Below are positions 10,227-30,343 of a stretch of 33,580 bases of DNA, piece after piece. Each line of letters starts with the position of its first letter. The first letter of the stretch is position 1. A model generated the notes under the pieces. It did not search any database and was not told the DNA's origin. It saw only the letters and a list, made by a program, of their open reading frames with translations. Both the position numbers and the translations under genes were made by a program. Source of the stretch: Acidimicrobiia bacterium (lineage in GTDB: Bacteria; Actinomycetota; Acidimicrobiia; Spongiisociales; UBA5794); the NCBI GenBank assembly GCA_041608535.1, contig JBFISM010000024.1, forward strand, positions 1-33,580, written 5' to 3'.

Positions 10227-11744
10227 ATGGAGAACGTCGCTTTTCTCCCCATTGCACCCGAGGTGGTGTTGCTGGCGGGGGCCCTCGTCGTGCTGCTCGC
10301 CGATGTGACGTTGGGATTGGGCCGTCGGGTGGGAGTGTGGATCGCCGGAACGTCGTTGGTGGCTGCGGCGCTGCTCGCCGTGGTCCAGTGGCGGACGGTC
10401 GACACGATCCTGGCCATCCCCGTGCCGGAGGACTTGCTCAGCTTCTCGGCGCGCGGGGTCGCCACCCCGCGACTTCCAATGGTGGTGATGGATCACTACT
10501 CGGCGTTCGCCGGGATCGTTCTCTTCACCGTTGCCGCGGTGGCGCTGCTGGGTGCGTGGCGCCTCATCGACATGCTCGAGGAACGGGCGACCGAGTTCAT
10601 CGTGCTCTTCGTGCTTGCGGTTGGCGGCCTCCACGTCATGGCGATGAGCGCCAACTTGATTTTGCTCTTCATCGGTCTGGAGACGGCGTCGATCAGCCTG
10701 TACGTCATGGCCGGGTTCACCCGAGGCAAGGAGCGGTCCGACGAGGCCGCCGTCAAGTACTTCTTGCTCGGCTCGTTTGCGTCCGCCGTGTTTCTCTACG
10801 GAGTCGCACTGACGTTCGCTGCGACCGGATCCACCTCGCTCTACGGCGTCCAGGGGATACAGGCTTTTTTCGCCGAGAACATCCTGTCGGCTTCGGGTAT
10901 CGGCTTGGCGGGACTGGGGATGATCATCGTCGGTCTCGGGTTCAAGGTGTCGGCCGCTCCGTTCCACCAGTGGGCGCCGGACGTCTACCAGGGAGCTCCG
11001 AGCGGTGCGGTTCCCATCATGGCGGCGGGGGTGAAGATCGCCGGCTTCGCCGCGATCGGCCGCATCCTCAACGTCGGGTTCCCGGCCCTGGCCGACGACT
11101 GGATGCCGGCCATCGCCGCGCTGGCCGTCGTGTCGGTGGCGGTTGGCACCCTGCTTGCCATCGCTCAAGACGATCTGAAGCGGATGCTGGCGTACTCGGG
11201 TGTCGCCCACGCCGGATTCATCCTCACCGGGGTCGTTGCCGGGGTCGCCGGGCTTCCCGGGATGTGGTTCTATGTATCGACCTACGCGTTCCAGCTCGTC
11301 GGTGCGTTCACCATCGTTGCGGTCGTCGCCGGCAGTCGCTCCGACCGGGCGCCGTTCGACCTCTTCGCCGGTCTGGGGGCGAGATCGCCCTTCGTTGCGG
11401 CGATGCTGGCGCTCTTCATGGTCGCCATGGGCGGGATCCCGTTCACGGCCGGGTTCATCGGCAAGATATCGGTCTTCACCGCCGCGGCCGATGCCGGCTA
11501 TCTGTGGCTCGCGGTGGCAGCGCTGGTGCTTGCCGTTGCGGGTCTGTTCTTCTACCTGCGAATCATCGTGCTGATGTACTTCCAGGAGCCGGTGTTGGCC
11601 GAGGCCCCGGGCACGGCGACCGCCCCACCTGAGCTGATGTGGTCCACCCGTACCGTGGTGGCGATCTGCGCCGCCGTCACGGTGTTGTTCGGCATCGTGC
11701 CGTGGCCCCTGCTGAACTTCGTGGGCCATGCCCTCCCGTTGTGA
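10227..11744 (+). CDS. nuoN: NADH-quinone oxidoreductase subunit N (antiporter-like)
   Basis: ATG at 10227 follows GGAGGAATAGGTGGAGAGCGTGGAG. The 505-aa NuoN/ND2-like protein contains FHQWAPDVYQGAPSGAV. It is the last nuo gene of the first operon. Confidence 0.9.
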   Translation: MENVAFLPIAPEVVLLAGALVVLLADVTLGLGRRVGVWIAGTSLVAAALLAVVQWRTVDTILAIPVPEDLLSFSARGVATPRLPMVVMDHYSAFAGIVLFTVAAVALLGAWRLIDMLEERATEFIVLFVLAVGGLHVMAMSANLILLFIGLETASISLYVMAGFTRGKERSDEAAVKYFLLGSFASAVFLYGVALTFAATGSTSLYGVQGIQAFFAENILSASGIGLAGLGMIIVGLGFKVSAAPFHQWAPDVYQGAPSGAVPIMAAGVKIAGFAAIGRILNVGFPALADDWMPAIAALAVVSVAVGTLLAIAQDDLKRMLAYSGVAHAGFILTGVVAGVAGLPGMWFYVSTYAFQLVGAFTIVAVVAGSRSDRAPFDLFAGLGARSPFVAAMLALFMVAMGGIPFTAGFIGKISVFTAAADAGYLWLAVAALVLAVAGLFFYLRIIVLMYFQEPVLAEAPGTATAPPELMWSTRTVVAICAAVTVLFGIVPWPLLNFVGHALPL

Positions 11745-12915
11745 TCAGCCAACCCATCGTCTGCTGAAGCGTCGCACCGTCTGGATCGCCGGCCTGGTGG
11801 CACTCGTCGTCCTCGTACCCATCGGGGGGGTCGCTGCCGATGTCATCTCGACGGGCCAGTTCGTTGTCCTCGAAGGCGACACCCAGGAGGAGGACGCATA
11901 CGTGGCGGCGTCGAGCGGCAACGTCGCGGGTACGGTCGATGGCGATCTCGTCATCGCCACCCCCCGGCTCACCATCTCGGGGGTGGTGACGGGAGACGTG
12001 CTGGTCGCCTCCCAGGGCACGGTGACGGTATCGGGGAGGATCGACGGCTCGCTGCGGGGGGCGGCGGTCGCCTTCGACGTGAGCGGCACAGTTGGCGACG
12101 ACATCGTTGTAGCCGCTGTGGACATCACGGTGACCGGCGAGGTCGGCCGGGACGTCGTGGTTCTCGGCAACGGCCTCAGCCATCGAGGTGCGGTCGGTAG
12201 GGATGTGTTGGGTCGGGCTCGGACGGTCGAGGTTGCCGGCGAGGTCGGCCGGGACGTCGACATGGCGGTCGATACCATCGAGGTGGTCGCAACCGGGTCG
12301 GTTGGCGGGGATGTCGTCTACCGCTCGAGTCGCCCGGTTGTCGTCGCCGACGATGCCTTCATCGGCGGACAGGTGATCGATCTGCCCACCCGGGCGCCCT
12401 TCTTCGTCAACTTGGTGCTGCGGCTGGTCCTGCTGCTAGGTGTGCTCGGCTTCCTCGTTCTGGGTGTCGTGGTGCTCGCCGTGTTTCGGGGCACCGCCGA
12501 GCATGCTTTTGGGGCACTGGTCTCGCACCCGTGGCGTTCGCTCCTCGTCGGGGTTGGGCTGGGTGTGGTGGTGCCGCTTGTCGTGGCCCTGCTGACGGCC
12601 ACTCTGGTGGGGATCCCACTTGCCGTCGTCCTGCTCGTCGGCGTGATCCTCGCGCTGCTGGGCGGAGCCATACCTGTGGTGACCGTCGTGGGAGCCCGGC
12701 TCCTGTCCGGTCGGGGAGGCGCCGTCGGCGGATTCCTGCTCGGCGGGTTGCTGTGGGTGGCGGCGATGCTGCTGTTGCCGGTGGTCGGCGCCGTGCTCGG
12801 CGTGCTGGTGGTGGCTCTCGGAACCGGGGCTTGGGTGCTCGGTGCCTGGTCCTCCCGGGATCCTCACGGGTGGCCGACGGTTCCGGTGCGAGGTGACCGC
12901 AACGCTAATCGATGA
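11728..12915 (+). CDS. Bactofilin-repeat (DUF583/CcmA-like 'polymer-forming cytoskeletal') polytopic membrane protein, hypothetical
   Basis: The N-terminus has basic residues and a TM segment (KRRTVWIAGLVALVVLVPIGG). About 170 aa of degenerate beta-helical repeats follow (G[ED]VGRDVVV / VSGTVGDDIVV / VTGDVLVASQG). Then come 5-6 Gly/Leu/Val-rich TM helices. The ATG overlaps the 3' end of nuoN by 17 nt. The stop TGA is at 12913-15. Confidence 0.6.
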   Translation: MPSRCDQPTHRLLKRRTVWIAGLVALVVLVPIGGVAADVISTGQFVVLEGDTQEEDAYVAASSGNVAGTVDGDLVIATPRLTISGVVTGDVLVASQGTVTVSGRIDGSLRGAAVAFDVSGTVGDDIVVAAVDITVTGEVGRDVVVLGNGLSHRGAVGRDVLGRARTVEVAGEVGRDVDMAVDTIEVVATGSVGGDVVYRSSRPVVVADDAFIGGQVIDLPTRAPFFVNLVLRLVLLLGVLGFLVLGVVVLAVFRGTAEHAFGALVSHPWRSLLVGVGLGVVVPLVVALLTATLVGIPLAVVLLVGVILALLGGAIPVVTVVGARLLSGRGGAVGGFLLGGLLWVAAMLLLPVVGAVLGVLVVALGTGAWVLGAWSSRDPHGWPTVPVRGDRNANR

Positions 12916-14197
12916 TGTAGAACTCGAGCAGGTCGGTGCCGAACGGCGGGAGGAGCGCGGCTTCGTCGCCGGATGTGAGCATGCCGGGATGGAGTGCGTA
13001 GAAGGTCACCGCACCGATCTCGCTCCCCACTCCGCCGGGGACGCTCAGGAATTGGCCGTAGTCCTGGTCGGGGTCGGCCGCCAGCGCCGCATCGTCGTAG
13101 ATGATGGTGTGGAACCAGACGAGGGTCTGATCGTCGAAGATGACCGGGTCGGCCGGATCGGAGTCGCTGTCGACACCGAATCCGAAGCGGGGGGAGCCGA
13201 TAATGGAATCGGCGAAGATGCGCGGCTTGCTGCCGCTGGCGTTCCAGGACTGGAGACAGCTCCGCATCCTTCTGCTCAGCTGCTCGAGGATCAGTGTGGG
13301 ATCGTTGAAGTTGCTCTCATGGCATTGGGCGATCCCACTCGGGGCCGGAAGGAGGTGGTCCCACAGGCCATCGGCACCGAGGAGCGGGCTGCCTGCCCCG
13401 CCAAACGCCTGAGTGAGCAAGGTCGTGCCGGCGGGGAGGGGGATTCGGTTCGCCTGGTTGGGGAGGGTGAGGATGTGACCGCTCGCACACGCATCGGCCT
13501 CGTGTCGCACGCTCTCCGTGTCGATGTCGATCATGTGGTCGACCCCGTCCTGGATGTTGGCCACGGTGGCGGCGTCGCTCGTCGAACAGTCGAGCGGGTC
13601 GAGCCCGGTCATCTGGATGAGCCGGTTCTGCAGGCCGCTGGCGCTGGTGCACACCAGTGGTGTGGGGTCGGGTGGGCTTGCGGGCGGGGAGTACGCGGGT
13701 AACGAGGCACGCATGCACTGGTAGGGCTGCCCGCTTGGATTGTCGACCCCGACCGGGACCAGCTTGTCGAGGACTTCGGGTAGCTCGATCTCGGCGACGG
13801 AATCGGCACCTGTTTCATTGGTCGCCGCGGCGCCCATGGCGCGGGCGAACGAGTTGCGGGACACCGCGTTGACCTGGAGCGTCACCTGGAGGTAGTCAGC
13901 GCTGATGGTGGCGACCGTCCCTGCACCGGGAGAGTTCACCCCGGTGAGCGAGTCGACGAGTGCCTGCACCTCGTCTTGTGCGATCGGTCCGACCGGGGAG
14001 CCGGCGGCGAAGGTCCGGGGGATGGCCTGCAGGGCTCCCACCGCACCGACGTCGGAGGCGGCCTGGGCGCGGCGCCGGTTCGACCAGGCATTGCTCAGAT
14101 CGACGGCGATGGCGGCGACTCCCACCAGCACGAGCAGCACGATGGCGGTGAAGATGAGGATCGCGCCGCGTTCGCTGCGGCTTCGGGTCAGGGGCAT
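12905..14197 (-). CDS. TadG-like Flp-pilus assembly pseudopilin with a large Cys-containing extracellular C-terminal domain
   Basis: The start ATG (plus-strand cat at 14195-97) is preceded by GGAGG 6-7 nt upstream on the minus strand. The N-terminus MPLTRSRSERGAILIFTAIVLLVLVGVAAIAVDLSNAW matches the Tad/TadE-TadG N-terminal signature, ERG + TM. An approximately 380-aa domain with at least 6 Cys follows. The upstream in-frame 317 codons of the 747-aa ORF are Ser/Arg-rich junk overlapping the tadE frames. Confidence 0.7.
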   Translation of the reverse strand: MPLTRSRSERGAILIFTAIVLLVLVGVAAIAVDLSNAWSNRRRAQAASDVGAVGALQAIPRTFAAGSPVGPIAQDEVQALVDSLTGVNSPGAGTVATISADYLQVTLQVNAVSRNSFARAMGAAATNETGADSVAEIELPEVLDKLVPVGVDNPSGQPYQCMRASLPAYSPPASPPDPTPLVCTSASGLQNRLIQMTGLDPLDCSTSDAATVANIQDGVDHMIDIDTESVRHEADACASGHILTLPNQANRIPLPAGTTLLTQAFGGAGSPLLGADGLWDHLLPAPSGIAQCHESNFNDPTLILEQLSRRMRSCLQSWNASGSKPRIFADSIIGSPRFGFGVDSDSDPADPVIFDDQTLVWFHTIIYDDAALAADPDQDYGQFLSVPGGVGSEIGAVTFYALHPGMLTSGDEAALLPPFGTDLLEFYIID

Positions 14198-14676
14198 GCG
14201 AAGCCTCCGCTGGAGCCGCCCCCTCCGTAGCTGTCCGGCCACCACGTCGTTGCCGCATCGAGCGGCTGCTCGACCACGAAGTCGACCGTATGGGAGACGG
14301 TGATCGAGGAGTAATCGAAGAATCCGGTGATGCTGGGCAGCTCCATCCACACGATGGCGCGGCCGATCGAGCCGCGCGACCCGACAGGATCGGCGGTGCC
14401 CGGGTCCTGCGGGCTGCGGCTCACGTCGACGCGCACCCCGGCGAACTTCGACGCCTCGAGATCGTCGCAGACGAAGCCGGCGATCTGTGTGGAGTTGAGC
14501 GTGCCGCCGGTGGTGGCGGCGTAGCGGGCGGCTCCATGAGCGACACCGCGCAGCTCGTTCTGCAACGCATAGGCCTGGGAGAACTCGACGATGCCGAACA
14601 GCAACAACATCAGGAAGGGGAGCACGAGCGCCGCTTCCACGGAGGCCACACCCTGCTCGCGACGACGCCGGCTCAC
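14188..14676 (-). CDS. TadE-like pilus assembly protein (minor pseudopilin)
   Basis: Motif RRRREQGVASVEAALVLPFLMLLLFGIVEFSQ (TadE-like, PF07811-type). The likely start is GTG at 14676..14674, in a GTGA overlap with the upstream tadE-like stop and with GAGGAAG 6 nt upstream. The alternative ATG at 14712 would give a 40-nt overlap. The 3' end overlaps the tadG-like start by 10 nt. Confidence 0.65.
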   Translation of the reverse strand: MSRRRREQGVASVEAALVLPFLMLLLFGIVEFSQAYALQNELRGVAHGAARYAATTGGTLNSTQIAGFVCDDLEASKFAGVRVDVSRSPQDPGTADPVGSRGSIGRAIVWMELPSITGFFDYSSITVSHTVDFVVEQPLDAATTWWPDSYGGGGSSGGFACP

Positions 14677-15200
14677 GAGCACTTCTTCGGAGGCGTGGGG
14701 AAGCTCCACCATGCCGGAGCCGCATCTCGGGGTTCCTCGACGTAGAACCGGGCCGAGGATGCGAGATCGAACCCGAGAGAGTCGAACCACCCGGTGATCG
14801 TGCGCACCTGGCTCGTCCGGGCTTCGGCGACGCCGATGGCGCCCGTGCTTCCCTCGGGATCGCCACCGCTGCCCGGGATACCGTCGGCACGGAACTCGAA
14901 ATTGGCGGGATCGATGACACCGAGTCGTCCGCACAGGATGTTGGTGATCTGTTGGCTCGACAGGTTCTCCACCGCGGCGATCCTCGCCCCTTCGCGGGCG
15001 AGATGGCGGAGCTCGCTGTTCTGGGCGAGCACGAAGCTGAATTCGATGATCCCGATGATGAAGAGGAGGAACACCGGGAACACCAGGGCGAACTCGACGA
15101 GCGAGCCCCCCCTCTCGTCGCCACGCAACCCCCGACGCCGCACGCCAAACGCCGCAGGCCCGCTACGTCGCCGGGCGCTCTGGCTGGTCACATGCGGCAC
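14673..15200 (-). CDS. TadE-like pilus assembly protein (minor pseudopilin)
   Basis: Motif GGSLVEFALVFPVFLLFIIGIIEFSFVLAQN. GTG start as in the ORF track, with a GAGGGG RBS upstream on the minus strand. The true start may be a downstream in-frame codon. The ORF-track ends were kept because the printed sequence looked 1 nt out of register in this line. Confidence 0.6.
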   Translation of the reverse strand: MPHVTSQSARRRSGPAAFGVRRRGLRGDERGGSLVEFALVFPVFLLFIIGIIEFSFVLAQNSELRHLAREGARIAAVENLSSQQITNILCGRLGVIDPANFEFRADGIPGSGGDPEGSTGAIGVAEARTSQVRTITGWFDSLGFDLASSARFYVEEPRDAAPAWWSFPTPPKKCS

Positions 15201-15321: not shown

Positions 15322-16419
15322 TCAGATCGTCCGCACCAGCAGCGGAACCCGCCGTTCCTCGGCCGTCAGGCCCCCGTGGTTGCCGATCATCCGGTCGTCG
15401 CTGTGCTTGTGCAGGAGGAAGAATCCATCGTCGGCGACGAGTACGCCGTCGGGAAGCCGCTCCGGATGGCGGAAGCCCCGTGGTGCCGGGCCCCACCAGT
15501 GCCGCATGTCATCGACCGGCACCCAGGTGGCGGGCACGGTGCCGGCGATGGCCGCTCCGTCGCCCTTGACGAACATCACCCTGCCGTCCCCGTAGAGAAT
15601 CCGTCCGTCGTGGAGCGAGCGGGGGATTCGTATCTGGCGCTCCTTGGGGAAATCGACATGCCCGTGGTCTGCGGTGCCCACCAACGTCGCATCCGGCGGC
15701 ACCTGCCACGACAGAGCCGACCACACGTTGTCGACCACCCGGATTGCGCCGGCATACTCGGGGGTGCGCTGGCCGTGGACGTGGGCTGCGTAGTCGACAT
15801 TCGCCACGTACGTGAGGATCAGCCGTCCCGGTGCGGACGCCAGGTCGGCGGTGGCCGAGATCAGCTCGCCGATCGTGGTCACTCCCTCGAACCGGCACCC
15901 CCGGTAGAGCAGACGAGTCAGGCTGCTGGTGCGGAAACCCTCCGGTTGCACCGTCACCGTCTCGACACCGGCCGCGGCGAGCCGTTCCCACAGGTTGGGG
16001 GCAGGGAGGAAAGCGGTTGTGTCGTAGTCGAGCGGGTCGCCCCACAGCGTGGTCCACTTGATGGTGTTGGCGACCACGTCGAGTTCCGGAATCCACAGCT
16101 GATATCCGAAGAGACCGTGCTGGGACGGTGGCATGCCGGTGGCGATGGTGGCCAAGCTCACCGTGGTGGTGGTCGGAAACGGGGCATCGAGCTCGGCGAC
16201 CTTGGATGCACCGAGCGTGGCGGCCCCAGGGTGATCCACCTGGGCGGCGCCCAGGCCGTCGAACACCACGAGGACGACCGTCTGCCCGGGGGTCAGCAGC
16301 GACCGCAAGCGTTTGTCGAGGCGTGGAGCCGGCGCGGCTCCGGCAAGGCGAAACTCCAGCTCCGCAACCAGGTTCAGCAGCGATCCACCGTCATAATCGG
16401 GGGCCGCCGCAGCCGTCAT
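15322..16419 (-). CDS. Alkaline-phosphatase-superfamily protein (type I phosphodiesterase / nucleotide pyrophosphatase-like)
   Basis: Motifs VVLVVFDGLGAAQ (metal-ligand Asp region), TVSLATIATGMPPSQHGLFGY, DHGH and IGNHGGLT are typical of AP-core phosphodiesterases/phosphatases. The ATG at 16419..16417 has no obvious RBS, so the transcript may be leaderless or short-leader. Confidence 0.7.
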   Translation of the reverse strand: MTAAAAPDYDGGSLLNLVAELEFRLAGAAPAPRLDKRLRSLLTPGQTVVLVVFDGLGAAQVDHPGAATLGASKVAELDAPFPTTTTVSLATIATGMPPSQHGLFGYQLWIPELDVVANTIKWTTLWGDPLDYDTTAFLPAPNLWERLAAAGVETVTVQPEGFRTSSLTRLLYRGCRFEGVTTIGELISATADLASAPGRLILTYVANVDYAAHVHGQRTPEYAGAIRVVDNVWSALSWQVPPDATLVGTADHGHVDFPKERQIRIPRSLHDGRILYGDGRVMFVKGDGAAIAGTVPATWVPVDDMRHWWGPAPRGFRHPERLPDGVLVADDGFFLLHKHSDDRMIGNHGGLTAEERRVPLLVRTI

Positions 16420-16512: not shown

Positions 16513-16899
16513 ATGGATTCGTATCTGGGGGACTACATCACGGTCGCCGTTTTTCTGGCGGTTGGGGCGCTCCTCGTTGGCGGCGGGATCTTCGCTTCCT
16601 CCCTGCTCCGGCCCGACAAACCCTCCCGGGTGAAGTCCGAATCGTACGAATGCGGCATCGATCCGGTCGGTGGGGGCTGGTCGCAGACCCAGATCCGGTA
16701 CTACATCTTCGCCTTGCTGTTCCTCATCTTCGACATCGAAGCCGTCTTCATCTTCCCGTGGGCGATCAAGCTGGAGGACTTCTCGGCACCTGCGGTGGGC
16801 ATGGGTGGTTTCGTGCTCGTCGAGATGGTGATCTTCATCGCCATCCTCGTCGTCGGTTTGGTCTACGCCATCCGCAAAGGGGTGCTGCGGTGGGAGTGA
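16513..16899 (+). CDS. nuoA: Complex I-like subunit A (second operon)
   Basis: ATG at 16513, with GTG at 16510 also possible. It lies 11 nt after the GAGAGAGG RBS. NuoA/ND3 motifs: [43 protein letters not shown]. Confidence 0.85.
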
Positions 16900-17387
16900 T
16901 CGAGAAGTTCGGGGTTCCCAAGCCTGTGTCGTGGCTTCTCAACTGGTCTCGCAAGTATTCGCTGTGGTTCTTCCAGTTTGGGCTTGCGTGCTGCGCCATC
17001 GAGATGATGGCGGCTTCGGCTCCTCGCTACGACTTCATGCGTTTCGGGATCATCCCACTGCCGGCATCCCCCCGGCAGGCCGACCTGATGGTGGTGGCCG
17101 GCACCGTCACCGACAAGATGGCTCCTGCGGTCCGCAGGCTCTACGACCAGATGCCCGAGCCGAAATACGTGATCTCCATGGGTTCGTGCTCGAACTGCGG
17201 CGGTCCCTACTGGGATTCGTACTCGGTGACCAAGGGCGTCGATCAGGTCATACCCGTCGACGTCTACGTTCCCGGGTGCCCACCCCGCCCCGAGGCGCTG
17301 ATGGAGGGCATCGTGCTGCTTCAAGAGCAGATCATGAATGAAGACGTACGCGAGAAGTGGACCCAGCGTGACCGACAGCCCGTCTGA
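16896..17387 (+). CDS. nuoB: Complex I-like subunit B (N2 [4Fe-4S] carrier, second operon)
   Basis: GTG at 16896 in a GTGA overlap with the nuoA2 stop; GTG at 16890 is also possible. The N2-cluster Cys ligands are all present in [24 protein letters not shown] and VYVPGCPP. Confidence 0.85.
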
Positions 17388-18027
17388 AACGAGCACCGCC
17401 GAGGAAGGCACCGCAGCGACGCCGGAGGACACCGCAGGCGATGAGCTGCTGGCCACGGCCGAGCGGCTCGCCGCGCGCGTCGGATCCGAGCACTTCACTG
17501 CCGATCTCGGGACCGTGAAGATCACCGTCGACCGGGACGGCTGGGTGGGCGCCATCACCACGCTGCGCAGCGAGTTGCCGTTCTTCTCCTGGCTGTCTGC
17601 GGTGGATTGGGCGCAGGAGGTCGCAGTCGGCGAGCCGGCGGAGAACGCCGAGGAGCTGGAGGAGCGCTACGAGGTGATGTGCCGCGTCTCCTCGGTGACC
17701 GATGCTTCGGCCGCCATCGTCAGTACCACGCTCTCCAAGGACGACGCCTGGATCGATTCGCTCGTGCCCTTCATCGCCGGCGCGGAGTGGCACGAGCGGG
17801 AGGCCGCCGAGATGTTCGGCATCGACTTCCGCGGCAACCCCAACCTGACACCGCTGTACCTGCCCGACGGTTTTGTCGGGCACCCGCTGCGCAAGTCGTA
17901 CCCGTTGCTCAGCCGTGAGGTCAAGCCGTGGCCGGGCACCGTCGACGTCGAGGGTATGCCGGATGAGGAGGGTGGCGACGAAGCTGCCGGCGCCCCGTCG
18001 ACGACGAACCCCGAGGCCGGCGTATGA
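17338..18027 (+). CDS. nuoC: Complex I-like subunit C (30 kDa, second operon) with an acidic low-complexity N-terminal extension
   Basis: Conserved NuoC core ([13 protein letters not shown]...[25 protein letters not shown]). The ATG at 17338 overlaps nuoB2 by 50 nt. The alternative GTG at 17368 gives a 20-nt overlap. The N-terminus [23 protein letters not shown] is low-complexity. Confidence 0.8.
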
Positions 18028-19232
18028 CCCAGCTCGACGAGGCCAGGATCGACCCGCGAACGGCGATGCATCTGTCCGAGGCAGCTGTCTCTGTCGAGCT
18101 GGAGACACCCGACATGACCCTCAACATCGGGCCACAGCACCCGTCGACCCACGGGGTGCTCCGGCTCGTCGCCAGAGTCGATGGCGAGCGGGTGGAGGAG
18201 GTCGAGCCGGTCATCGGCTACATGCACCGTGGCTACGAGAAGCTGGCAGAGGTGCGCACCTACGCCCAGACGATCGCACTGGTCAACCGAATCGACTGGG
18301 TCTCCGGCTTTGCCAACGAGATTCCCTTCGTGGTTGCCGTGGAACGGCTCACGGGTATCGAGCCCCCGGACCGGGCGCAGTACATCCGTCTCATTCTCAC
18401 CGAGATGGCCAGGATCGCGTCGCATCTCGTCTTCATGTCGTCGTACCCGCTCGAGCTGGGCGCCGCCACACCCCTCATGCATGCGCTGCGCGAGCGGGAA
18501 CGGGTGCTCGAGCTCATCGAGAGCGTCACCGGGGGCCGCTTCCATCCCAATTTCAACCGGGTGGGCGGGGTCAAGCCTGTATACGGTGGCGGATCGAGCA
18601 CGAAGAAGCAGAGTCAGGATCTCCCGGCAGGTTTTCTCCAGGGCACCCGTGATGCCATGGAGAAGATCATGGCGATCACAGACGATCTCGACCAGCTCGT
18701 GACCGGGAACGAGTTGATCCAGGCCCGCACGGTCGGAGTCGGTGTCATCCCGGCCGACAGAGCGCTCGAGTACGGCCTGTCGGGACCGAACCTGCGCGCC
18801 TCCGGGGTCAATTTCGACCTCCGCAAACACGAGCACATCCTCCCGTACGCCAACTTCGACTTCGAAATCCCGCTTGGCTCCAACGGCGACTGCTACGACC
18901 GCTATGTGGTTCGTAACGAGGAGATCCGCCAGAGCGCCCGGATCATCCAGCAGGCCGTCGATGGCATTCCCGCGGGCCCGCTCCAGGCGAAGGTTCCTCG
19001 CATCCTCAAGGTTCCCGTCGGTGAGACCTACGTTCGCGCCGAGAACCCGAAAGGCGAGATGGGCTATCACGTCATCTCGCAGGGAGGACGCATCCCGTAC
19101 CGGGTGAAGATCCGCTCGGCCTCGTTCTCCAATCTCTCGATCCTGCCGTGGATCCTGGAGGGACAGCTCATCCCCGATCTCGTCGCAATCATGGGCAGCC
19201 TCGATTTCGTCCTGGGCGACGTGGACAGGTAG
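18024..19232 (+). CDS. nuoD: Complex I-like subunit D (49 kDa, second operon)
   Basis: ATG in an ATGA overlap with the nuoC2 stop. The 402-aa protein has NIGPQHPSTHGVLRLV and the conserved quinone/N2-proximal IGYMHRGYEKL (Arg codon at 18228-30). Confidence 0.9.
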   Translation: MTQLDEARIDPRTAMHLSEAAVSVELETPDMTLNIGPQHPSTHGVLRLVARVDGERVEEVEPVIGYMHRGYEKLAEVRTYAQTIALVNRIDWVSGFANEIPFVVAVERLTGIEPPDRAQYIRLILTEMARIASHLVFMSSYPLELGAATPLMHALRERERVLELIESVTGGRFHPNFNRVGGVKPVYGGGSSTKKQSQDLPAGFLQGTRDAMEKIMAITDDLDQLVTGNELIQARTVGVGVIPADRALEYGLSGPNLRASGVNFDLRKHEHILPYANFDFEIPLGSNGDCYDRYVVRNEEIRQSARIIQQAVDGIPAGPLQAKVPRILKVPVGETYVRAENPKGEMGYHVISQGGRIPYRVKIRSASFSNLSILPWILEGQLIPDLVAIMGSLDFVLGDVDR

Positions 19233-19246
19233 GGGGCGGGTACATC

Positions 19247-20269
19247 GTGGAACTCAACTTCTGGCTGGCGCTGCTGCTCAAGGTTGCACTCATTCTGGGC
19301 GTGATGCTGCCGGGTGCTCTCGTGATCATCTTCGGCGAGCTGAAGATCTCGGCTCACATGCAGAGCCGCATCGGTCCGTACTTCGCCGGGGGCCGTTTTG
19401 GCTGGGCGCAGCCGCTCGCCGACGGGCTCAAGTTCATGCAGAAAGAGGATCTCGTACCGGCGCAGGCCGACGCCACGGTCTACAAGCTGGCGCCGTATGT
19501 GGTCATGATGGGGACGCTGGCCACCTTCGTCATCATCCCGTTCGGGCCCGATCTCGTGGCGGAGAACCTCGATCTCGGTGTGTTCTACCTGCTCGCGGTG
19601 TCGTCGCTGTCGACACTCGGGGTGCTCATGGCCGGCTGGTCCTCGGGCAACAAGTACTCGCTCATCGGAGGCCTGCGCGCCGCGGCACAGCTCATTGCCT
19701 ACGAGCTGCCGCTGGTGCTCGCCGTCGTGGGGGTCGCCATCATGGCCGGGACCCTTTCGCTCAATGGCATAGTCGAGGCGCAAGCGGAGTGGCGCTGGTT
19801 CGACGTCGCCCCCGAGTGGATCAACATCATCCCGCCGTACCTGATCCTGCAAGGTGCCGGGTTTGCGATCTTCGTCACCGCCAGCCTCGCCGAGCTGAGC
19901 CGGATCCCTTTTGACATGCCCATTGCGGAATCGGAGCTGACGATGGGCTACCTCACCGAGTACTCGGGTCTCCGGTTCACCATGTTCTTTCTCGGCGAGT
20001 ATGCCGGGATGGTCGCGATGTCGGCGGTCGCGGCCACCCTGTTCCTCGGTGGCTACTGGCTTCCGTTCGTCTCCGAAGACGCCCTCAACTTCCTCGGCCC
20101 GGTCGTGCTGCTCACGAAGGTGGGGCTGCTCGCCTTTGTGTTCATCTGGTTCCGGTGGACCTTCCCCCGGCTGCGCGAGGACCAGCTGCAGAGCCTCGCC
20201 TGGAAGTGGCTCATCCCGGCTGCCCTGGTCAACATCGTCGTGACCGCAACCGTGAAAGTGTTGGTGTGA
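19247..20269 (+). CDS. nuoH: Complex I-like subunit H (second operon)
   Basis: GTG at 19247 lies 7-9 nt after the GGGGGCGGG RBS. The N-terminus [21 protein letters not shown] matches NuoH. It has the NuoH motifs [11 protein letters not shown] and [27 protein letters not shown]. The upstream in-frame extension (19148-19246) overlaps nuoD2 and is Arg/Gly junk. Confidence 0.88.
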
Positions 20270-20273
20270 AGCG

Positions 20274-20759
20274 ATGACGATGACGAACCGCCGACCCAAC
20301 ATCTCCATACCCGTCAAAGGCTTGATGCGGGGGTTGGCCCTCACCCTGAAGACACTCTTCACCAAGCCGGTCACGGTCAACTACCCCCTGGTCAAGGAGG
20401 TTCCGGTCCCTCGCGCCAGGGGCGTGATCGCACTCGATCCCGAAGCGTGCACCGTGTGCATGCTGTGCGCCCGGGAATGTCCGGACTGGTGCATCTACAT
20501 CGAGGGACACAAGGAGGAGGTTCCCCCCGCCAAGGAGGGGGGCCGGGTGCGCACGCGGGCCACACTCGATCGGTTCGACATCGACTATGCGCTGTGCATG
20601 TACTGCGGGATCTGCGTGGAGGTGTGCCCGTTCGATGCGCTCTTCTGGAGCCCCGACTACGAGTACTCCGAGTACGACATCAGCGAGATGCTGCACGACC
20701 AGAACCGGCTCACCGACTGGCTGAAGACGGTCCCCGAGCCGCCCCCGCTGGAGACGTAG
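20274..20759 (+). CDS. nuoI: Complex I-like subunit I (2x[4Fe-4S], second operon)
   Basis: 161 aa. The cluster motifs are [12 protein letters not shown] and [12 protein letters not shown]. It has no C-terminal extension, unlike first-operon NuoI. Confidence 0.9.
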
Positions 20760-21314
20760 ATGACGGTCGGCGACTTCTTCACCACGACCGAGAACTGGGT
20801 GTTCCTGCTCATCGCACTCCCGATGCTCTTCGCCGGATACAAGGTGGTGACTACGAACAACGTGGTCCACGCCGTCCTGGCTCTCGTGGGTGCGCTCGCC
20901 GGTTCGGCAGCGCTGTTCGTGCTGCTCGGGGCGGAGTTCGTGGCGTGGACTGTCGTGCTCATCTCGATCGGCGCCGTCATCGTTCTGTTTCTCTTCGGAA
21001 TCATGATCACCAGGGCGCCGATCGGGCTCGAGGTCGATCTCAGCCATCCCCGGAGCGCGAGGATCTCGGCGGCGGTGGCATCGGGCGGTCTCTTCGTCTT
21101 GCTCGGCTCGGCCATGCTCGCTGAGTTCGGTGACGAGGTGATTCCAGAAGCGGCCGATGCCACCCGTACGGATGCGCTGGGGCTGCTGCTCTTCCAACGC
21201 TATGTGGTTCCTTTCGAAGTGGTCTCGGTCGTGCTGCTGGCGGCTCTGATCGGAGGCATCGTCATCGCACGGCGTGATCCCAGTCCGGACGAACCGGCAG
21301 GGACCAGGCTCTGA
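20760..21314 (+). CDS. nuoJ: Complex I-like subunit J (second operon)
   Basis: ATG immediately after the nuoI2 TAG (TAGATG). The 184-aa protein is hydrophobic and NuoJ-like. Confidence 0.85.
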   Translation: MTVGDFFTTTENWVFLLIALPMLFAGYKVVTTNNVVHAVLALVGALAGSAALFVLLGAEFVAWTVVLISIGAVIVLFLFGIMITRAPIGLEVDLSHPRSARISAAVASGGLFVLLGSAMLAEFGDEVIPEAADATRTDALGLLLFQRYVVPFEVVSVVLLAALIGGIVIARRDPSPDEPAGTRL

Positions 21315-21619
21315 TGCTTATCAACGGCTTCCTCCTGCTCGGCGCCGCCCTCTTCTCGCTGGGTGTCTACGGCCTCCTCGTGCGCCGTAACGCAGTGCTC
21401 ATCCTGCTGTCGGTTGAGCTGATGGTGGCCGCCGTGAACATCAACTTCGTCGCGTTGGACCGGTTCCTCGGTGACGACCTCGCCGGTGGCCAGGTCTTCG
21501 CCCTCTTCAGCATCGCCGTGGCGGCAGCCGAGGTCGGGATCGGTCTGGCGATCATCCTGCTCGTGTTTCGCAACCGCCAGTCCGCCAACGTCGATGAGCT
21601 GGATCTGATGCGGCTATGA
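21314..21619 (+). CDS. nuoK: Complex I-like subunit K (second operon)
   Basis: ATG overlaps the nuoJ2 TGA (cTGATG). The 101-aa protein has LVRRNAVLILLSVELMVAAVNINFVAL...AAAEVGIGLAIILLVF. Confidence 0.88.
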   Translation: MLINGFLLLGAALFSLGVYGLLVRRNAVLILLSVELMVAAVNINFVALDRFLGDDLAGGQVFALFSIAVAAAEVGIGLAIILLVFRNRQSANVDELDLMRL

Positions 21620-23718
21620 GCCTGCTTGCCGCACTGTCGACGGAAGTGCCCCTGCTGCTGGCCGCGGCAACGGAGGAAGGCGGGCATGCCGAGCTCGGCG
21701 ACGGTGGTGGGCTCGCTGCGGCCGCGTGGCTCATCCCGCTCGTCCCGATGGTGGCCGCTTTCGTCATCGCATTGTTCGGCAAGCACTTCCCGTACAGAGG
21801 GTGGGACATCGCCACGGCGGTGATGGGCTTCGAAGCGGTGTACGGCACCTTCCTGCTCATCGCCCACCTCGCCCGCCCGATCGCCTACGAAGGTGCGATC
21901 GAAATCGCGCGAATCGGGAGCTTCCCCATCGAGTGGGGCTGGGTGGTCGACGGGCTCAGCATCATGATGTACTTCGTCGTCGGTGTCGTCGGCTTCTTCG
22001 TCTTCCTCTACGCCAAGGGCTATATGGAAGGCGACATTCGCTACACGTGGTTCTTCGCCTCGTTCACGCTGTTCGCCGGTGGCATGCTGGTCCTGGTCTC
22101 CGCACCCAACCTCATCCAGCTCATCGTGGGTTGGGAGCTGGTCGGCGTGGCGTCATGGTTGCTCATCGGTCACTACTGGGAGGATCACGCCAACAGCTCT
22201 GCGGCGATCAAGGCGTTCCTCACGAACAAAGTGGCCGACGTGGGTCTCTTCATCGGCGCCATCATCCTGGCCCTGTCCGTCGGGTCGTTCCGTTTCTCGG
22301 ACATCCTCCACGCCGTCGAGGAGGGAGTGCCCGCGCTGGCTCAGTTCGCCTTCTGGGCCGGGCTCGCCGTGTTCATCGGGGCGATGGGCAAGAGCGGGCA
22401 GTTCCCCCTTCATGTGTGGCTCCCCGACGCCATGGCCGGTCCCACTCCCGTGTCGGCCCTCATGCACGCCGCCACCATGGTCACGGCAGGGATCTATCTG
22501 GTGGCCCGTCTCTTCCCGCTGTACCTCACCGAAGGGTTCGCCGATGAAGTGCGCTCGGTGATCATCATCATCGGGGCGCTCACGCTGTTCCTCACCGGGC
22601 TCATCGCACTGGTCCAGGACGACATCAAGAGGGTGCTGGCATACTCGACGCTGTCCCAGCTCGGCTACATGATGGCGGCGCTCGGGGCGGGGGCGTACAC
22701 GGCCGCTCTGTTCCACCTCTTCACCCACGCCTTCTTCAAGGCGCTGCTCTTCCTCGGCGCCGGCTCGGTGATCCATGCGGTGCACTCGAACAACATGTCC
22801 GACATGGGTGGGTTGCGGAAGTACATGCCCTGGACGTTCCGCACGTTCGTCATCGGTGCGCTGGCGCTCGCCGGGATCGCTCCTCTGGCCGGCTTCTTCT
22901 CCAAAGACGAGATCCTCGCTTCGTTCCGCTACGCCGGGAGCGCCGAATCCGGATTCAGTGCGGCGCAGGGTGGCGCCGGGCTCGCCAACATCGTCCTGGT
23001 GCTGGGCATTGCCGCAGCATTCGTGACCGCCTTCTACATGGCGCGGGCGGTGTTCCTCACGTTCTTCGGCGAGTACAAGGGGCACGGCCATCCTCACGAG
23101 TCGCCCGCCGTCATGTGGATTCCGCTGGTGGGGCTCGCCGTCGGCTCAGCGTTCGCCGGCTTCCTCAACGTCCCAGGTGTCACCGAGTTCTTCACCGAGC
23201 TGGTTGGCGGCCGGGCAGTGCCGGTTCTCGATCACCACGCCGAGAGCTTCGATGTCGTCGTGGTGGTGCTGGGTCTCGCCGCCGCGCTGCTCGGCATCTT
23301 CTTCGGCTACCGCATCTGGTATCCCGACAAAGCAACCCAAGCGGAGCGAGACCGGTTCCACGTTCGTGGTCTCTACCCGTTGCTGGAGAACAAGTATTAC
23401 ATCGACGATCTGTACTTCGACGGCATCATCCGTCCGATCCGGGGCCCGGTGGCGGCCGGAGTCAACTGGTTCAACGGCCACGTGATCGATTTCGTCGTCA
23501 ACGGCGCCGGATTCCTCGCCCGTGGGCTCGGCAAGCTCGTCTATGCCTTCGACCAGAACGCCGTCGACGGCGCCATCAACGCCTCGGGCGCCTTCACCGG
23601 TGGGTGGGGGGAGCTGCTGCGCAAGGTACAAACCGGTCGAGTGCAGCAATACGCAACGATGATCGTGGCGGGAACGGTGCTTCTCGTCGCCGGGATCGTC
23701 ATCGCAGGCATCATCTGA
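21616..23718 (+). CDS. nuoL: Complex I-like subunit L (antiporter-like, second operon)
   Basis: ATGA overlap with the nuoK2 stop. The 700-aa protein has VGWELVGVASWLLIGHYW and LHVWLPDAMAGPTPVSALMHAATMVTAGIY, plus a long C-terminal helix region. Confidence 0.9.
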   Translation: MSLLAALSTEVPLLLAAATEEGGHAELGDGGGLAAAAWLIPLVPMVAAFVIALFGKHFPYRGWDIATAVMGFEAVYGTFLLIAHLARPIAYEGAIEIARIGSFPIEWGWVVDGLSIMMYFVVGVVGFFVFLYAKGYMEGDIRYTWFFASFTLFAGGMLVLVSAPNLIQLIVGWELVGVASWLLIGHYWEDHANSSAAIKAFLTNKVADVGLFIGAIILALSVGSFRFSDILHAVEEGVPALAQFAFWAGLAVFIGAMGKSGQFPLHVWLPDAMAGPTPVSALMHAATMVTAGIYLVARLFPLYLTEGFADEVRSVIIIIGALTLFLTGLIALVQDDIKRVLAYSTLSQLGYMMAALGAGAYTAALFHLFTHAFFKALLFLGAGSVIHAVHSNNMSDMGGLRKYMPWTFRTFVIGALALAGIAPLAGFFSKDEILASFRYAGSAESGFSAAQGGAGLANIVLVLGIAAAFVTAFYMARAVFLTFFGEYKGHGHPHESPAVMWIPLVGLAVGSAFAGFLNVPGVTEFFTELVGGRAVPVLDHHAESFDVVVVVLGLAAALLGIFFGYRIWYPDKATQAERDRFHVRGLYPLLENKYYIDDLYFDGIIRPIRGPVAAGVNWFNGHVIDFVVNGAGFLARGLGKLVYAFDQNAVDGAINASGAFTGGWGELLRKVQTGRVQQYATMIVAGTVLLVAGIVIAGII

Positions 23719-23734
23719 CAGGAGGAACCGAGAC

Positions 23735-25312: not shown

Positions 25313-25318
25313 CCGGCG

Positions 25319-26836: not shown

Positions 26837-26841
26837 TGGCT

Positions 26842-26865
26842 TCGAGCCAAGCAGGCTTGGCTCGA
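26842..26865 (+). terminator. GC-rich hairpin (11-bp inverted repeat TCGAGCCAAGC-ag-GCTTGGCTCGA) between nuoN2 and the methyltransferase gene; no U-tract
   Basis: A perfect inverted repeat starts 6 nt after the nuoN2 stop. It is followed by CTTGACGG rather than a T-run. It could act as a partial (factor-dependent or I-shaped) terminator, or as an RNA-stability or processing element. Confidence 0.35.
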
Positions 26866-26887
26866 GCTTGACGGACCCTGGAGTCGC

Positions 26888-30301: not shown

Positions 30302-30343
30302 CCATGCGGGAACCATGACCAGCCGGTGGGGCGTCTCAATCAT

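What the first reader, a model, noticed from the sequence alone, without database searches (positions are those of the whole stretch)
11728..12915. Bactofilin-repeat polytopic membrane protein fused onto the end of the nuo operon
The ORF starts inside the last 17 nt of nuoN, which suggests translational coupling or co-transcription with complex I. It combines an N-terminal signal-anchor, about 170 aa of degenerate bactofilin/CcmA-type beta-helix repeats, and a C-terminal bundle of 5-6 TM helices. Canonical bactofilins are soluble cytoplasmic polymers. A membrane-integral bactofilin-repeat protein physically linked to respiratory complex I genes is unusual. It could be a scaffold, a localisation factor, or an unrelated beta-helix protein of similar composition.
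Basis: partly seen in the sequence, partly recalled or inferred. Interest (0 to 1): 0.55.

Follow-up and report, generated by a model that had tools for sequence, protein, structure and literature searches.

The report
Exported bactofilin-like membrane protein after nuoN
The last gene of this actinobacterial complex I operon encodes a membrane protein with a bactofilin-like beta-helix on the outside of the cell; the protein type (HalB/DUF8173) is already described, but its conserved, overlapping coupling to nuoN has not been reported and suggests an accessory role for complex I.

Summary
A 395-aa ORF (11728-12915, +) starts with an ATG inside the last 17 nt of nuoN. It encodes a signal-peptide-like N-terminus, about 10 windings of a 17-residue beta-helix repeat, and five TM helices plus one short helix.

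The bactofilin call is right for the family but weak for this protein. It scores 20.1 bits against a Pfam cut-off of 27.9. 34 of 40 relatives match PF04519, and the only PDB sequence hits are bactofilins.

Two points need correcting. Charge bias across 40 homologs places the beta-helix outside the cell, not in the cytoplasm. The architecture is also not new: it matches HalB (halofilin B) of Haloferax volcanii (PNAS 2024), whose family is mostly bacterial, and relatives carry Pfam DUF8173. I could not compare directly with the HalB sequence.

The nuo linkage appears unreported.
- All 20 related genome loci place the gene after nuoN.
- 18 of 18 informative metagenome loci with NuoN at least 52% identical have it; 0 of 59 with NuoN at most 43% identical do.
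- About 29 of 45 loci keep a start codon 17 or 20 nt inside nuoN.
- Five relatives outside this clade sit in unrelated contexts.

Best reading: a HalB-type outer-face scaffold recruited as a lineage-specific complex I accessory protein. Physical association is untested.

The parts
10227..11744 (+). nuoN, the last core gene of the 14-subunit-type nuo cluster (G, H, I, J, K, L, M, N lie upstream).
   Evidence: Pfam Proton_antipo_M at 201.7 bits. Gene calls and Pfam hits on the identical public contig show NuoG-H-I-J-K-L-M-N followed by the target.
11728..11744 (+). 17-nt overlap. The target's ATG (11728-11730) lies inside the 3' end of nuoN in the +1 frame. This is the inferred site of translational coupling.
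   Evidence: Read directly from the sequence. An ATG at -17 or a GTG at -20 relative to the end of the nuoN stop recurs in about 29 of 45 nuo-linked loci. No promoter-like site lies in 11400-13300. The two terminator-like matches (11528-11543 inside nuoN, 12485-12501 inside the target ORF) are within what shuffled sequence gives, 0.7 +/- 0.9.
11728..12915 (+). The whole ORF: 395 aa plus stop. HalB/DUF8173-type membrane protein.
11728..11841 (+). aa 1-38: positively charged n-region (5 K/R), hydrophobic h-region, and an AxA-like c-region (GGVAA|DV). Predicted Sec signal peptide, or an uncleaved N-in anchor.
   Evidence: Hydropathy and charge count. The same n/h/c pattern occurs in 40 homologs. 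No dedicated signal-peptide predictor was available.
11845..12384 (+). aa 40-219: right-handed beta-helix of about 10 windings of a 17-residue repeat (G-x-V-G-[RD]-D-V...). Bactofilin-like, net acidic, predicted extracytoplasmic.
12400..12852 (+). aa 225-375: C-terminal membrane domain. Five TM helices (225-252, 268-290, 295-325, 331-349, 351-375) and a short helix (254-266) in a positively charged cytoplasmic loop. Conserved G and P residues (P268, G275, P283, G295, P297, P316, G322, G365, G367). This region corresponds to Pfam DUF8173 in relatives.
   Evidence: AF2 DSSP. Hydropathy. Invariant columns. Loop charges +3.0 (253-270) and +2.2 (323-331), with none in the two hairpin loops. Precomputed PF26514 = DUF8173 in many relatives.
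12853..12912 (+). aa 376-395: short cytoplasmic tail. Many relatives instead have long acidic, proline-rich tails with DWEPPLAP and DDWGLP motifs.
   Evidence: Alignment A1.
12905..14170 (-). Convergent TadG-like pilus gene whose 3' end overlaps the target's 3' end by 11 nt. The 5' coordinate is approximate. This marks the end of the nuo transcription unit and is not part of the system.
   Evidence: ORF list. Pfam Tad PF13400 at 28.6 bits.

Best explanation
The ORF is a real gene for a HalB-type ('halofilin B', Pfam Bactofilin + DUF8173) envelope protein. A Sec signal peptide exports a beta-helix of about 10 windings that is bactofilin-related. The helix is held on the outer face of the cytoplasmic membrane by a C-terminal bundle of five TM helices, and the C-terminus is in the cytoplasm.

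In one lineage of Actinomycetota (Acidimicrobiia and relatives), this gene was recruited once to the 3' end of the 14-subunit nuo operon. It has been kept there with its start codon 17-20 nt inside nuoN. It is therefore co-transcribed with NuoN and very probably translationally coupled to it.

I infer that it works with complex I. The most likely role is a lineage-specific accessory protein: either a supernumerary membrane subunit or an outer-face scaffold or assembly factor. In this model its TM bundle contacts the membrane arm. Its acidic beta-helix, possibly self-associating as HalB does in vitro, stabilises or positions the complex in the membrane.

Shown here: gene reality, architecture, family assignment to the DUF8173/bactofilin group, predicted topology, and conserved synteny and overlap. 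Inferred: co-translation, physical or functional association with complex I, and polymerisation.
For: Gene reality and family:
- 191 full-length homologs.
- 6,471 50%-identity clusters at E<=1e-30 in a 1.84-billion-protein library.
- Coding GC pattern.

Architecture:
- AF2 pLDDT 91.3.
- 17-residue periodicity.
- PF04519 in 34 of 40 relatives.
- PDB sequence hits at E<0.01 are bactofilins only.

Topology:
- Positive-inside pattern across 40 homologs: N-terminus +2.5, loops +3.0 and +2.2, beta-helix about -12.

Match to HalB as published:
- HalB is described with a Sec signal peptide, an extracellular bactofilin domain, five TM helices plus a short sixth helix on the inner leaflet, and a variable cytoplasmic tail. 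Homologs have up to 10 windings and most family members are bacterial (PMC11459167).
- The external location of the HalB bactofilin domain was confirmed experimentally with HaloTag labelling.

Linkage to nuo:
- 20 of 20 genome loci have the gene after nuoN. 18 are directly adjacent and 2 have 2-3.7 kb inserts.
- Reverse test: 18 of 18 informative metagenome loci with NuoN >=52% identical carry it. 0 of 59 with NuoN <=43% identical do.
- Distant members at 29-34% identity (P0093, P0110, P0097, P0170) are still nuo-linked. Their NuoN is 44-51% identical to the window's.
- A start codon at -17 or -20 occurs in about 29 of 45 loci. The start lies within about 150 nt of the nuoN stop in 42 of 45.
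- In a crude NJ tree, every verified nuo-linked member falls in one clade and every verified non-linked member falls outside it.
- No promoter-like site lies in the scanned 11400-13300 region.

Precedent:
- In another actinobacterium, the non-core nuo-operon gene MSMEG_2064 proved to be a structural subunit of complex I by cryo-EM (PMC10068793).
- In this same window, the second nuo cluster is followed by an NDUFAF7/MidA-family methyltransferase, a family known from complex I assembly.
Against: - No direct evidence of physical or functional interaction with complex I. No multimer prediction could be run.
- The broad family is not nuo-linked. Five sampled members (P0095, P0102, P0185, P0301, P0378) lie in unrelated contexts.
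- The only characterised member, HalB, acts in cell-shape and envelope mechanics, not respiration.
- The catalytic and regulatory parts of complex I face the cytoplasm, whereas this beta-helix is predicted outside.
- Two loci (L012, L017) tolerate 2-3.7 kb between nuoN and the gene, and L035 about 0.7 kb.
- This protein itself is below Pfam's bactofilin cut-off and has no precomputed DUF8173 hit (row P0001).
- Homology to HVO_1237 was not tested directly.
- The sampled loci include near-duplicates (L024/L025, L032/L033, L037/L038), and all come from uncultured MAGs.
Confidence: 0.5

Rival explanations
1. It is a HalB-type envelope scaffold with no specific role in complex I. The gene sits at the end of the nuo operon only to borrow its strong, growth-linked transcription. 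It acts on cell envelope or shape mechanics, as HalB does in Haloferax.
For: - The only experimental data for this architecture concern cell shape and envelope curvature.
- The wider family is found in many unrelated contexts.
- The beta-helix faces away from the cytoplasmic arm of complex I.
- L012, L017 and L035 tolerate separation from nuoN.
Against: - Hitch-hiking rarely keeps a start codon at the same overlapping position (-17 or -20) while protein identity drops to 30-40%.
- 18 of 18 informative loci carry the gene and 0 of 59 outside the clade do.
- The nuo-linked members form a single clade.
- The downstream neighbours differ between loci while the nuoN junction is kept.
Confidence: 0.3
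2. It is an envelope-state sensor or regulator. The external beta-helix senses wall or membrane status and signals through the TM bundle and cytoplasmic tail to adjust respiration.
For: - Some relatives fuse an N-terminal anti-sigma zf-HC2 domain to the same module (PF13490 + PF26514/PF04519: P0120, P0350, P0351, P0353).
- The non-linked member P0102 lies 1-2 kb from an ECF sigma and zf-HC2 gene pair.
- Long-tailed relatives carry conserved short cytoplasmic motifs, DWEPPLAP and DDWGLP.
- Mycobacterial complex I binds a response regulator.
Against: - The window protein has no zf-HC2 domain and only a 20-aa tail without the WGLP motif.
- No sigma factor or regulator gene is adjacent.
- No signalling domain is detected.
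Confidence: 0.1
3. The beta-helix is a generic secreted right-handed beta-helix (adhesin, TPS or Toastrack-like) whose bactofilin match reflects G/V/D-rich repeat composition. The bactofilin label would then be misleading.
For: - The window protein is below Pfam's cut-off (20.1 vs 27.9 bits).
- Foldseek ranks bactofilin 6RIA only 48th at E 3.6.
- Weak FapA hits occur in relatives.
Against: - 34 of 40 relatives match PF04519, best E 4.4e-11.
- Some pass the gathering score: P0010 at 29.8 bits and P0025 at 29.7.
- A family profile searched against all PDB sequences finds only two bactofilins at E<0.01.
- HalB's domain was linked to TtBac by HHpred at E 1.8e-15.
Confidence: 0.07
4. It is not a translated gene but a chance ORF in a GC-rich region at the operon end.
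For: High-GC genomes produce many long spurious ORFs. Several overlap this region on both strands.
Against: - Full-length conservation in 191 or more proteins down to 25-30% identity, with invariant G, D and P columns.
- Thousands of clusters in the representative library.
- AF2 pLDDT 91.
- Coding GC3/GC2 pattern.
Confidence: 0.01

Closest known systems
HalB (halofilin B, HVO_1237 / D4GX31) of Haloferax volcanii and its family (Curtis et al., PNAS 2024, PMC11459167). Probably equivalent to Pfam Bactofilin + DUF8173 (PF26514) proteins.
   Same: The order of parts is the same: Sec-type signal peptide, N-terminal extracellular bactofilin-like beta-helix, five TM helices plus a short helix on the inner leaflet, and a cytoplasmic C-terminus with a variable tail. 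The published family is mostly bacterial and includes forms with up to 10 windings. The window protein has about 10.
   Different: HalB itself has 5 windings and a long disordered tail. The window protein has about 10 windings and a 20-aa tail. HalB was studied for archaeal cell shape beneath an S-layer. The paper's main text contains none of the words operon, neighbor, synten*, genomic context, Actinobacteria or Actinomycetota. Here the gene is translationally coupled to nuoN in a monoderm actinobacterial lineage. Sequence homology to HVO_1237 was not tested directly because the sequence could not be obtained.
Canonical bactofilins (PF04519): BacA of Caulobacter (2N3D), TtBac (6RIA), CcmA.
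   Same: A right-handed three-faced beta-helix with windings of about 17-18 residues, glycines at the turns and hydrophobic strand residues. Sequence-level relationship at family level.
   Different: Canonical bactofilins are cytoplasmic, have about 6 windings, bind the inner face of the membrane through a short N-terminal peptide, and mostly lack TM helices (PMC12448750). This protein is exported, has about 10 windings, and is anchored by a polytopic C-terminal domain joined directly to the C-terminal end of the helix. That end is therefore not free for end-to-end contacts (inference).
Lineage-specific supernumerary subunits of bacterial complex I: MSMEG_2064 in Mycobacterium smegmatis, Nqo15/Nqo16 in Thermus, and the NDUFS4/S6/A12 homologs in Paracoccus.
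   Same: MSMEG_2064 is a non-core gene encoded with the nuo operon in an actinobacterium and restricted to one lineage. It was shown by cryo-EM to be a subunit (PMC10068793; PMC12361115).
   Different: MSMEG_2064 and Nqo16 were placed next to NuoB on the enzyme. To my knowledge all of these subunits are soluble cytoplasmic-side proteins on the peripheral arm. The present protein is polytopic with an extracytoplasmic domain, which has no known counterpart in bacterial complex I. Association is untested here.
Gamma-carbonic-anhydrase beta-helix subunits of plant and protist mitochondrial complex I.
   Same: A beta-helix protein attached to the membrane arm near ND2 (the NuoN homolog). This is recalled from general knowledge and was not tested here.
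   Different: Those are left-handed beta-helix trimers on the matrix (N) side, unrelated in sequence. Foldseek hits to gamma-CA-like CcmM were not significant (E about 2-4). This is an analogy only.

Membership tests
Bactofilin (Pfam PF04519) | The protein itself scores above Pfam's gathering cut-off. | tested here: not met
   20.1 bits against a cut-off of 27.9, E 7.9e-4, aa 70-144.
Bactofilin (Pfam PF04519) | Family-level sequence homology of the beta-helix to bactofilins. | tested here: met
   34 of 40 relatives match at E<=0.01, best 4.4e-11. P0010 and P0025 pass the cut-off. The family profile finds only 6RIA (4.7e-4) and 2N3D (7.8e-3) at E<0.01 among PDB sequences.
Bactofilin (Pfam PF04519) | Right-handed beta-helix with windings of about 17-18 residues. 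| tested here: met
Bactofilin (Pfam PF04519) | Cytoplasmic location with a short N-terminal membrane-targeting peptide and no TM helices. | tested here: not met
   Signal-peptide-like N-terminus, five C-terminal TM helices, and a positive-inside pattern that places the helix outside.
Bactofilin (Pfam PF04519) | Nucleotide-independent polymerisation into non-polar filaments. | not testable with these tools
   Needs purified ectodomain with EM, or multimer modelling.
HalB / halofilin B (Bactofilin + DUF8173) | Sec/SPI signal peptide. | tested here: inconclusive
   An n-region with 5 K/R, a hydrophobic h-region and small residues at -3/-1 (V-A-A|D) are present here and in relatives. No SignalP-type predictor was available, so cleavage is not established.
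HalB / halofilin B (Bactofilin + DUF8173) | N-terminal bactofilin-like domain (5 to 10 windings) on the extracellular side. | tested here: met
   About 10 windings, aa 40-219. Predicted outside by charge bias across 40 homologs. This is prediction only.
HalB / halofilin B (Bactofilin + DUF8173) | Five TM helices plus a short sixth helix along the inner leaflet. | tested here: met
   AF2 helices 225-252, 268-290, 295-325, 331-349 and 351-375, plus a short helix 254-266 in a +3 loop. Compare the description in PMC11459167.
HalB / halofilin B (Bactofilin + DUF8173) | Sequence homology to HVO_1237, or a match to PF26514 (DUF8173). | tested here: inconclusive
   Many relatives carry a precomputed PF26514 hit. 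The window protein's own entry shows none (row P0001). The local Pfam copy appears to lack PF26514, because relatives with the precomputed hit did not match it. The HVO_1237 sequence could not be obtained.
HalB / halofilin B (Bactofilin + DUF8173) | Polymerises and forms foci at negative curvature on the outer surface. | not testable with these tools
   Experimental property reported for HalB only.
Complex I supernumerary subunit or assembly factor | Encoded in and co-inherited with the nuo operon. | tested here: met
   20 of 20 genome loci, 18 of 18 informative metagenome loci, and a conserved -17/-20 start overlap.
Complex I supernumerary subunit or assembly factor | Physically associates with complex I, or is required for its assembly or activity. 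| not testable with these tools
   Needs complexome profiling, cryo-EM or genetics.

The most novel reading that the evidence does not exclude
An extracellular, polymer-forming bactofilin (HalB-type) is a true membrane-embedded supernumerary subunit or outer-face scaffold of respiratory complex I in Acidimicrobiia. It would be made stoichiometrically with NuoN through a conserved overlapping start codon. It would organise or stabilise the proton-pumping membrane arm from the P side, for example by arraying complexes or tying them to membrane curvature or the cell wall. This would be the first polytopic and first P-side accessory subunit of a bacterial complex I. It would also be the first assigned function for a bacterial HalB/DUF8173 protein.
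Probability: 0.3. Interest if true: 0.75.

Novelty: new variant of a known kind. Interest (0 to 1): 0.5.

Why it matters
DUF8173/HalB-type proteins form a very large family: more than 6,000 50%-identity clusters at E<=1e-30. Only one member has been characterised experimentally, an archaeal one, and no bacterial function is known.

A clade that has stayed translationally coupled to nuoN while protein identity fell to about 30% gives a concrete, testable lead. It suggests that an outer-face bactofilin-like scaffold works with a respiratory complex.

For complex I research, it nominates a candidate lineage-specific subunit of a new type: polytopic and facing the P side. Another actinobacterium has already yielded an unexpected operon-encoded subunit.

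If the link proves to be only co-expression, the finding is still a useful annotation correction. These proteins are exported HalB-type proteins, not cytoplasmic 'CcmA/bactofilin cytoskeletal proteins' as databases label them.

Tried and rejected
- NCBIfam scan: no family.
- Foldseek against PDB with the full-length model: nothing at E<=0.001.
- The afdb50 fold library was not available.
- The first search for related loci attempt with the 40-sequence alignment failed because no conserved stretch was found. It was rerun with 11 closer sequences.
- Literature searches returned nothing relevant: 'DUF8173' gave 0 papers, 'bactofilin' + 'NADH dehydrogenase' gave 1 irrelevant paper, and Acidimicrobiia + complex I + nuo gave nothing on this gene. 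A genome survey of nuo operons does not mention it.
- Attempts to obtain an archaeal HalB sequence for a direct comparison all failed. No supplements are held for the paper. A search seeded with a Thorarchaeota-binned member returned only bacterial or unnamed relatives. tblastn against plasmids gave one Peptoclostridium hit. Cluster look-up gave almost no taxon names.
- A NuoN-target fusion by frameshifting was considered and rejected. The downstream frame starts with its own conserved start codon and a signal-peptide-like N-terminus in all relatives.
- A paralogous copy after the second nuoN in the window was considered and rejected. tblastn finds only one copy, and that position holds a Methyltransf_28 gene.
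- An own promoter was considered. No promoter-like site lies in 11400-13300, and the two terminator-like matches (one inside nuoN, one inside the target ORF) do not exceed what shuffles give. This is a weak consensus scan only.


Full report

Yes. The ORF listing gives an ATG-initiated ORF at 11728..12915 on the + strand, 395 aa. The upstream ORF 10227..11744 is NuoN (Pfam Proton_antipo_M, 201.7 bits). The ATG therefore lies 17 nt inside nuoN, in the +1 frame.

The identical protein is in the public collection on contig JBFIUB010000039.1 of MAG GCA_041607735.1. There it follows called genes for NuoG, H, I, J, K, L, M and N.

The ORF has a coding signature. GC at codon positions 1/2/3 is 0.775/0.47/0.80, and nuoN gives 0.65/0.46/0.86. 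It is conserved over its full length in 191 database proteins, with invariant glycine, aspartate and proline columns. A chance ORF is excluded.

**2. Anatomy**

- The N-terminus has five K/R residues followed by a hydrophobic stretch and a small-residue motif, GGVAA|DV.
- Residues ~60-215 show a sharp 17-residue periodicity. BLOSUM autocorrelation is +0.68 at lag 17 and at most -0.37 at every other lag between 10 and 33. The unit is G-x-V-G-[R/D]-D-V.
- AlphaFold2 with a 40-sequence alignment gives mean pLDDT 91.3. The model has a helix at 10-38, continuous beta-strands at 40-219, and helices at 225-252, 254-266, 268-290, 295-312/315-325, 331-349 and 351-375.
- That is five membrane-spanning helices plus one short helix in the first cytoplasmic loop.
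- Nothing matches the TM bundle. Foldseek on the whole model was uninformative.

**3. Is it bactofilin-like?**

For this protein alone the Pfam match is below threshold: PF04519 at 20.1 bits against a cut-off of 27.9.

For the family the match is sound.
- 34 of 40 aligned relatives hit PF04519 at E<=0.01, best 4.4e-11.
- Some relatives pass the gathering score.
- A profile of the family searched against all PDB sequences finds exactly two significant chains. Both are bactofilins: TtBac 6RIA at E 4.7e-4 and BacA 2N3D at 7.8e-3.

I conclude that the beta-helix is a divergent, extended bactofilin-type domain of about 10 windings, compared with about 6 in canonical bactofilins.

**4. Topology**

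Mean charges over 40 homologs follow the positive-inside rule.

| Region | Mean charge |
|---|---|
| N-terminus | +2.5 |
| Loop 253-270 | +3.0 |
| Loop 323-331 | +2.2 |
| The two short hairpin loops | essentially uncharged |
| Beta-helix region | 14 K/R against 26 D/E |

This gives N-in, beta-helix out, five TM helices, C-in. The N-termini of the relatives all look like Sec signal peptides with small residues at -3/-1.

[quoted passage not shown] No dedicated signal-peptide or topology predictor was available, so cleavage is not established.

**5. What is already known**

Full-text search led to Curtis et al. 2024 (PMC11459167). HalB of Haloferax volcanii is described there as follows:
- a Sec/SPI signal peptide;
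- an extracellular N-terminal bactofilin domain;
- five TM helices plus a sixth, shorter helix parallel to the inner leaflet;
- a disordered cytoplasmic tail.

The external location was confirmed with HaloTag labelling. The HalB cluster holds 2,304 UniProt proteins, 1,813 of them bacterial. Homologs have up to 10 windings and variable or absent tails. HalB polymerises in vitro, forms static foci at negative curvature on the outer surface, and affects cell shape.

The window protein matches every architectural feature of HalB. Many of its relatives carry precomputed Pfam DUF8173 (PF26514) plus Bactofilin. The family is very large, with 6,471 50%-identity clusters at E<=1e-30.

I could not obtain the HVO_1237 sequence. 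Membership rests on shared architecture and on PF04519/DUF8173, not on a direct alignment. A membrane-integral bactofilin-repeat protein is therefore a known kind.

**6. The link to complex I**

This is the part that appears new. The HalB paper's main text contains none of the words operon, neighbor, synten*, genomic context, Actinobacteria or Actinomycetota. No held paper mentions DUF8173, and none connects bactofilins with NADH dehydrogenase.

Forward test. All 20 loci recovered from GTDB representative genomes are mostly Acidimicrobiia MAGs, with 40-53% protein identity to the query. All have the gene downstream of nuoN on the same strand. 18 are directly adjacent, and two have 2.0 and 3.7 kb in between.

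Reverse test. I searched metagenome contigs with NuoN as the query.
- 21 loci have NuoN >=52% identical.
- 18 of them have at least 300 nt downstream, and all 18 carry the gene there.
- The other three have 180 nt or less of downstream sequence and are uninformative.
- None of 59 loci with NuoN <=43% identical carries it within about 4 kb.

Depth of the linkage. Members only 29-34% identical (P0093, P0110, P0097, and the arbitrarily sampled representative P0170) are still nuoN-adjacent. Their NuoN is 44-51% identical to the window's.

Junction. An ATG 17 nt, or a GTG 20 nt, before the end of the nuoN stop codon recurs in about 29 of 45 nuo-linked loci. P0170's locus L110 has exactly -17. In 42 of 45 loci the start lies within about 150 nt of the nuoN stop. 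The exceptions are L012, L017 and L035. Some loci are near-duplicates (L024/25, L032/33, L037/38).

No sigma-70-like promoter lies in the scanned 11400-13300 region. The two terminator-like matches, one inside nuoN and one inside the target ORF, do not exceed the shuffle expectation (weak evidence).

Outside this group the family is not nuo-linked. P0095, P0102, P0185, P0301 (Chloroflexi) and the 5-winding form P0378 all sit in unrelated neighbourhoods. In a crude NJ tree, all verified nuo-linked members form one clade and all verified non-linked members lie outside it (no bootstrap, midpoint root).

The simplest history is one recruitment of a HalB-type gene to the end of the 14-subunit nuo operon, followed by long vertical retention with translational coupling.

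**7. Mechanism**

Shown: the gene is real, the domain architecture, the predicted topology, the family relationship, and the conserved co-location and overlap.

Inferred, step 1: co-transcription and translational coupling with nuoN. This would give co-ordinated, near-stoichiometric insertion next to the last-made membrane-arm subunit.

Inferred, step 2: a function together with complex I. I consider a lineage-specific accessory membrane protein most likely, with confidence about 0.5 for the whole chain. It could be a supernumerary subunit or an outer-face scaffold or assembly factor. In this model the TM bundle contacts the membrane arm, and the acidic beta-helix, possibly self-associating as in HalB, stabilises or positions the complex.

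Two precedents support this.
- In Mycobacterium smegmatis, the non-core nuo-operon gene MSMEG_2064 proved to be a structural subunit by cryo-EM (PMC10068793).
- In this same window, a second nuo-type cluster (NuoB, C, D, H ... L, M, N at 16650-26836) is followed directly by a Methyltransf_28 protein. That is the family of the complex I assembly factor NDUFAF7/MidA.

Against it:
- There is no interaction evidence.
- The only characterised family member acts on cell shape.
- The helix faces away from the catalytic arm.
- Most of the family is not nuo-linked.

The main rival (about 0.3) is an envelope scaffold that merely shares nuo transcription. A sensor or regulator role (about 0.1) is suggested by zf-HC2 anti-sigma fusions to the same module in other lineages. 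A generic beta-helix misassigned as bactofilin (about 0.07) and a non-gene (about 0.01) are unlikely.

**8. Verdict**

- The protein is a bacterial member of the recently described HalB/DUF8173 type, with an exported rather than cytoplasmic bactofilin-like domain.
- Its conserved, overlapping coupling to nuoN in an actinobacterial lineage is a new variant of that known kind, and it gives a testable hypothesis.
- Interest is moderate (0.5). It would rise to about 0.75 if physical association with complex I were shown.

Noticed in passing
window 16650-27943 (+): A second complex-I-type gene cluster: NuoB 16650-17387, NuoC 17338-18027, NuoD 18024-19232, NuoH 19148-20269, NuoL 21616-23718, NuoM 23735-25312, NuoN 25319-26836. 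No E/F/G-type genes were seen among the ORFs scanned. The 20.3-21.6 kb stretch (expected I/J/K) was not resolved. The cluster is followed at 26888-27943 by a Methyltransf_28 (PF02636, 133.6 bits) protein, the family of the complex I assembly factor NDUFAF7/MidA. NuoN2 is only about 34% identical to NuoN1.
   Followed up: partly
window 12905-15200 (-): A convergent Tad/Flp pilus module: a TadG-like ORF (Tad PF13400) whose 3' end overlaps the target's 3' end by 11 nt, then two TadE-like ORFs (14188-14934, 14673-15200). A type I phosphodiesterase lies at 15322-16419 (-).
   Followed up: no
alignment A1 (relatives P0010, P0030, P0037, P0049, P0052, P0061, P0067 and others): Many nuo-linked relatives have long acidic, proline-rich cytoplasmic tails with two conserved short motifs. 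DWEPPLAP sits just after the last TM helix and DDWGLP sits at the extreme C-terminus. The window protein has only a 20-aa tail without WGLP. These motifs suggest a cytoplasmic binding partner.
   Followed up: no
proteins P0120, P0350, P0351, P0353; locus L027 8221-9515: In other lineages the same beta-helix and DUF8173 module is fused to an N-terminal anti-sigma zf-HC2 domain (PF13490). One non-nuo member (P0102) lies 1-2 kb from an ECF sigma and zf-HC2 gene pair. This hints at a signalling use of the module.
   Followed up: no
L021 10001-10674: The homolog after nuoN in MAG contig CAWBYA010000007.1 matches in two frames (query aa 1-174, then 151-224). This is a frameshift, either a pseudogene or an assembly error.
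   Followed up: no
L012 7889-9914; L017 6232-9914; L035 5527-6188: In three related loci, 2.0 kb, 3.7 kb and about 0.7 kb of extra DNA separate nuoN from the homolog. The content of these inserts was not examined.
   Followed up: no
window 29006-31849 (+): An SPFH/Band 7 (flotillin/stomatin-type) protein at 29006-30301 and an M48 peptidase at 30977-31849 lie downstream of the second nuo cluster. These are membrane-organisation and quality-control genes near two respiratory clusters.
   Followed up: no
L109 4822-5559: A non-nuo family member (P0185) has a DUF2807 gene immediately upstream, encoding another predicted beta-helix-type envelope protein.
   Followed up: no
whole window: The only public contig found to carry the identical protein is 12,442 bp (JBFIUB010000039.1) and ends soon after the gene. 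The window is 33,580 bp. The window must therefore come from a longer or different assembly of the same or a nearly identical organism.
   Followed up: no
L007 (CAXMRC010000070.1); protein P0284: Two taxonomic labels look out of place for this family. A nuo-linked locus is binned as 'uncultured Gemmatimonadales', and a family member is binned in 'Candidatus Thorarchaeota archaeon SMTZ1-83'. These may be mis-binned contigs or real wider distribution.
   Followed up: no
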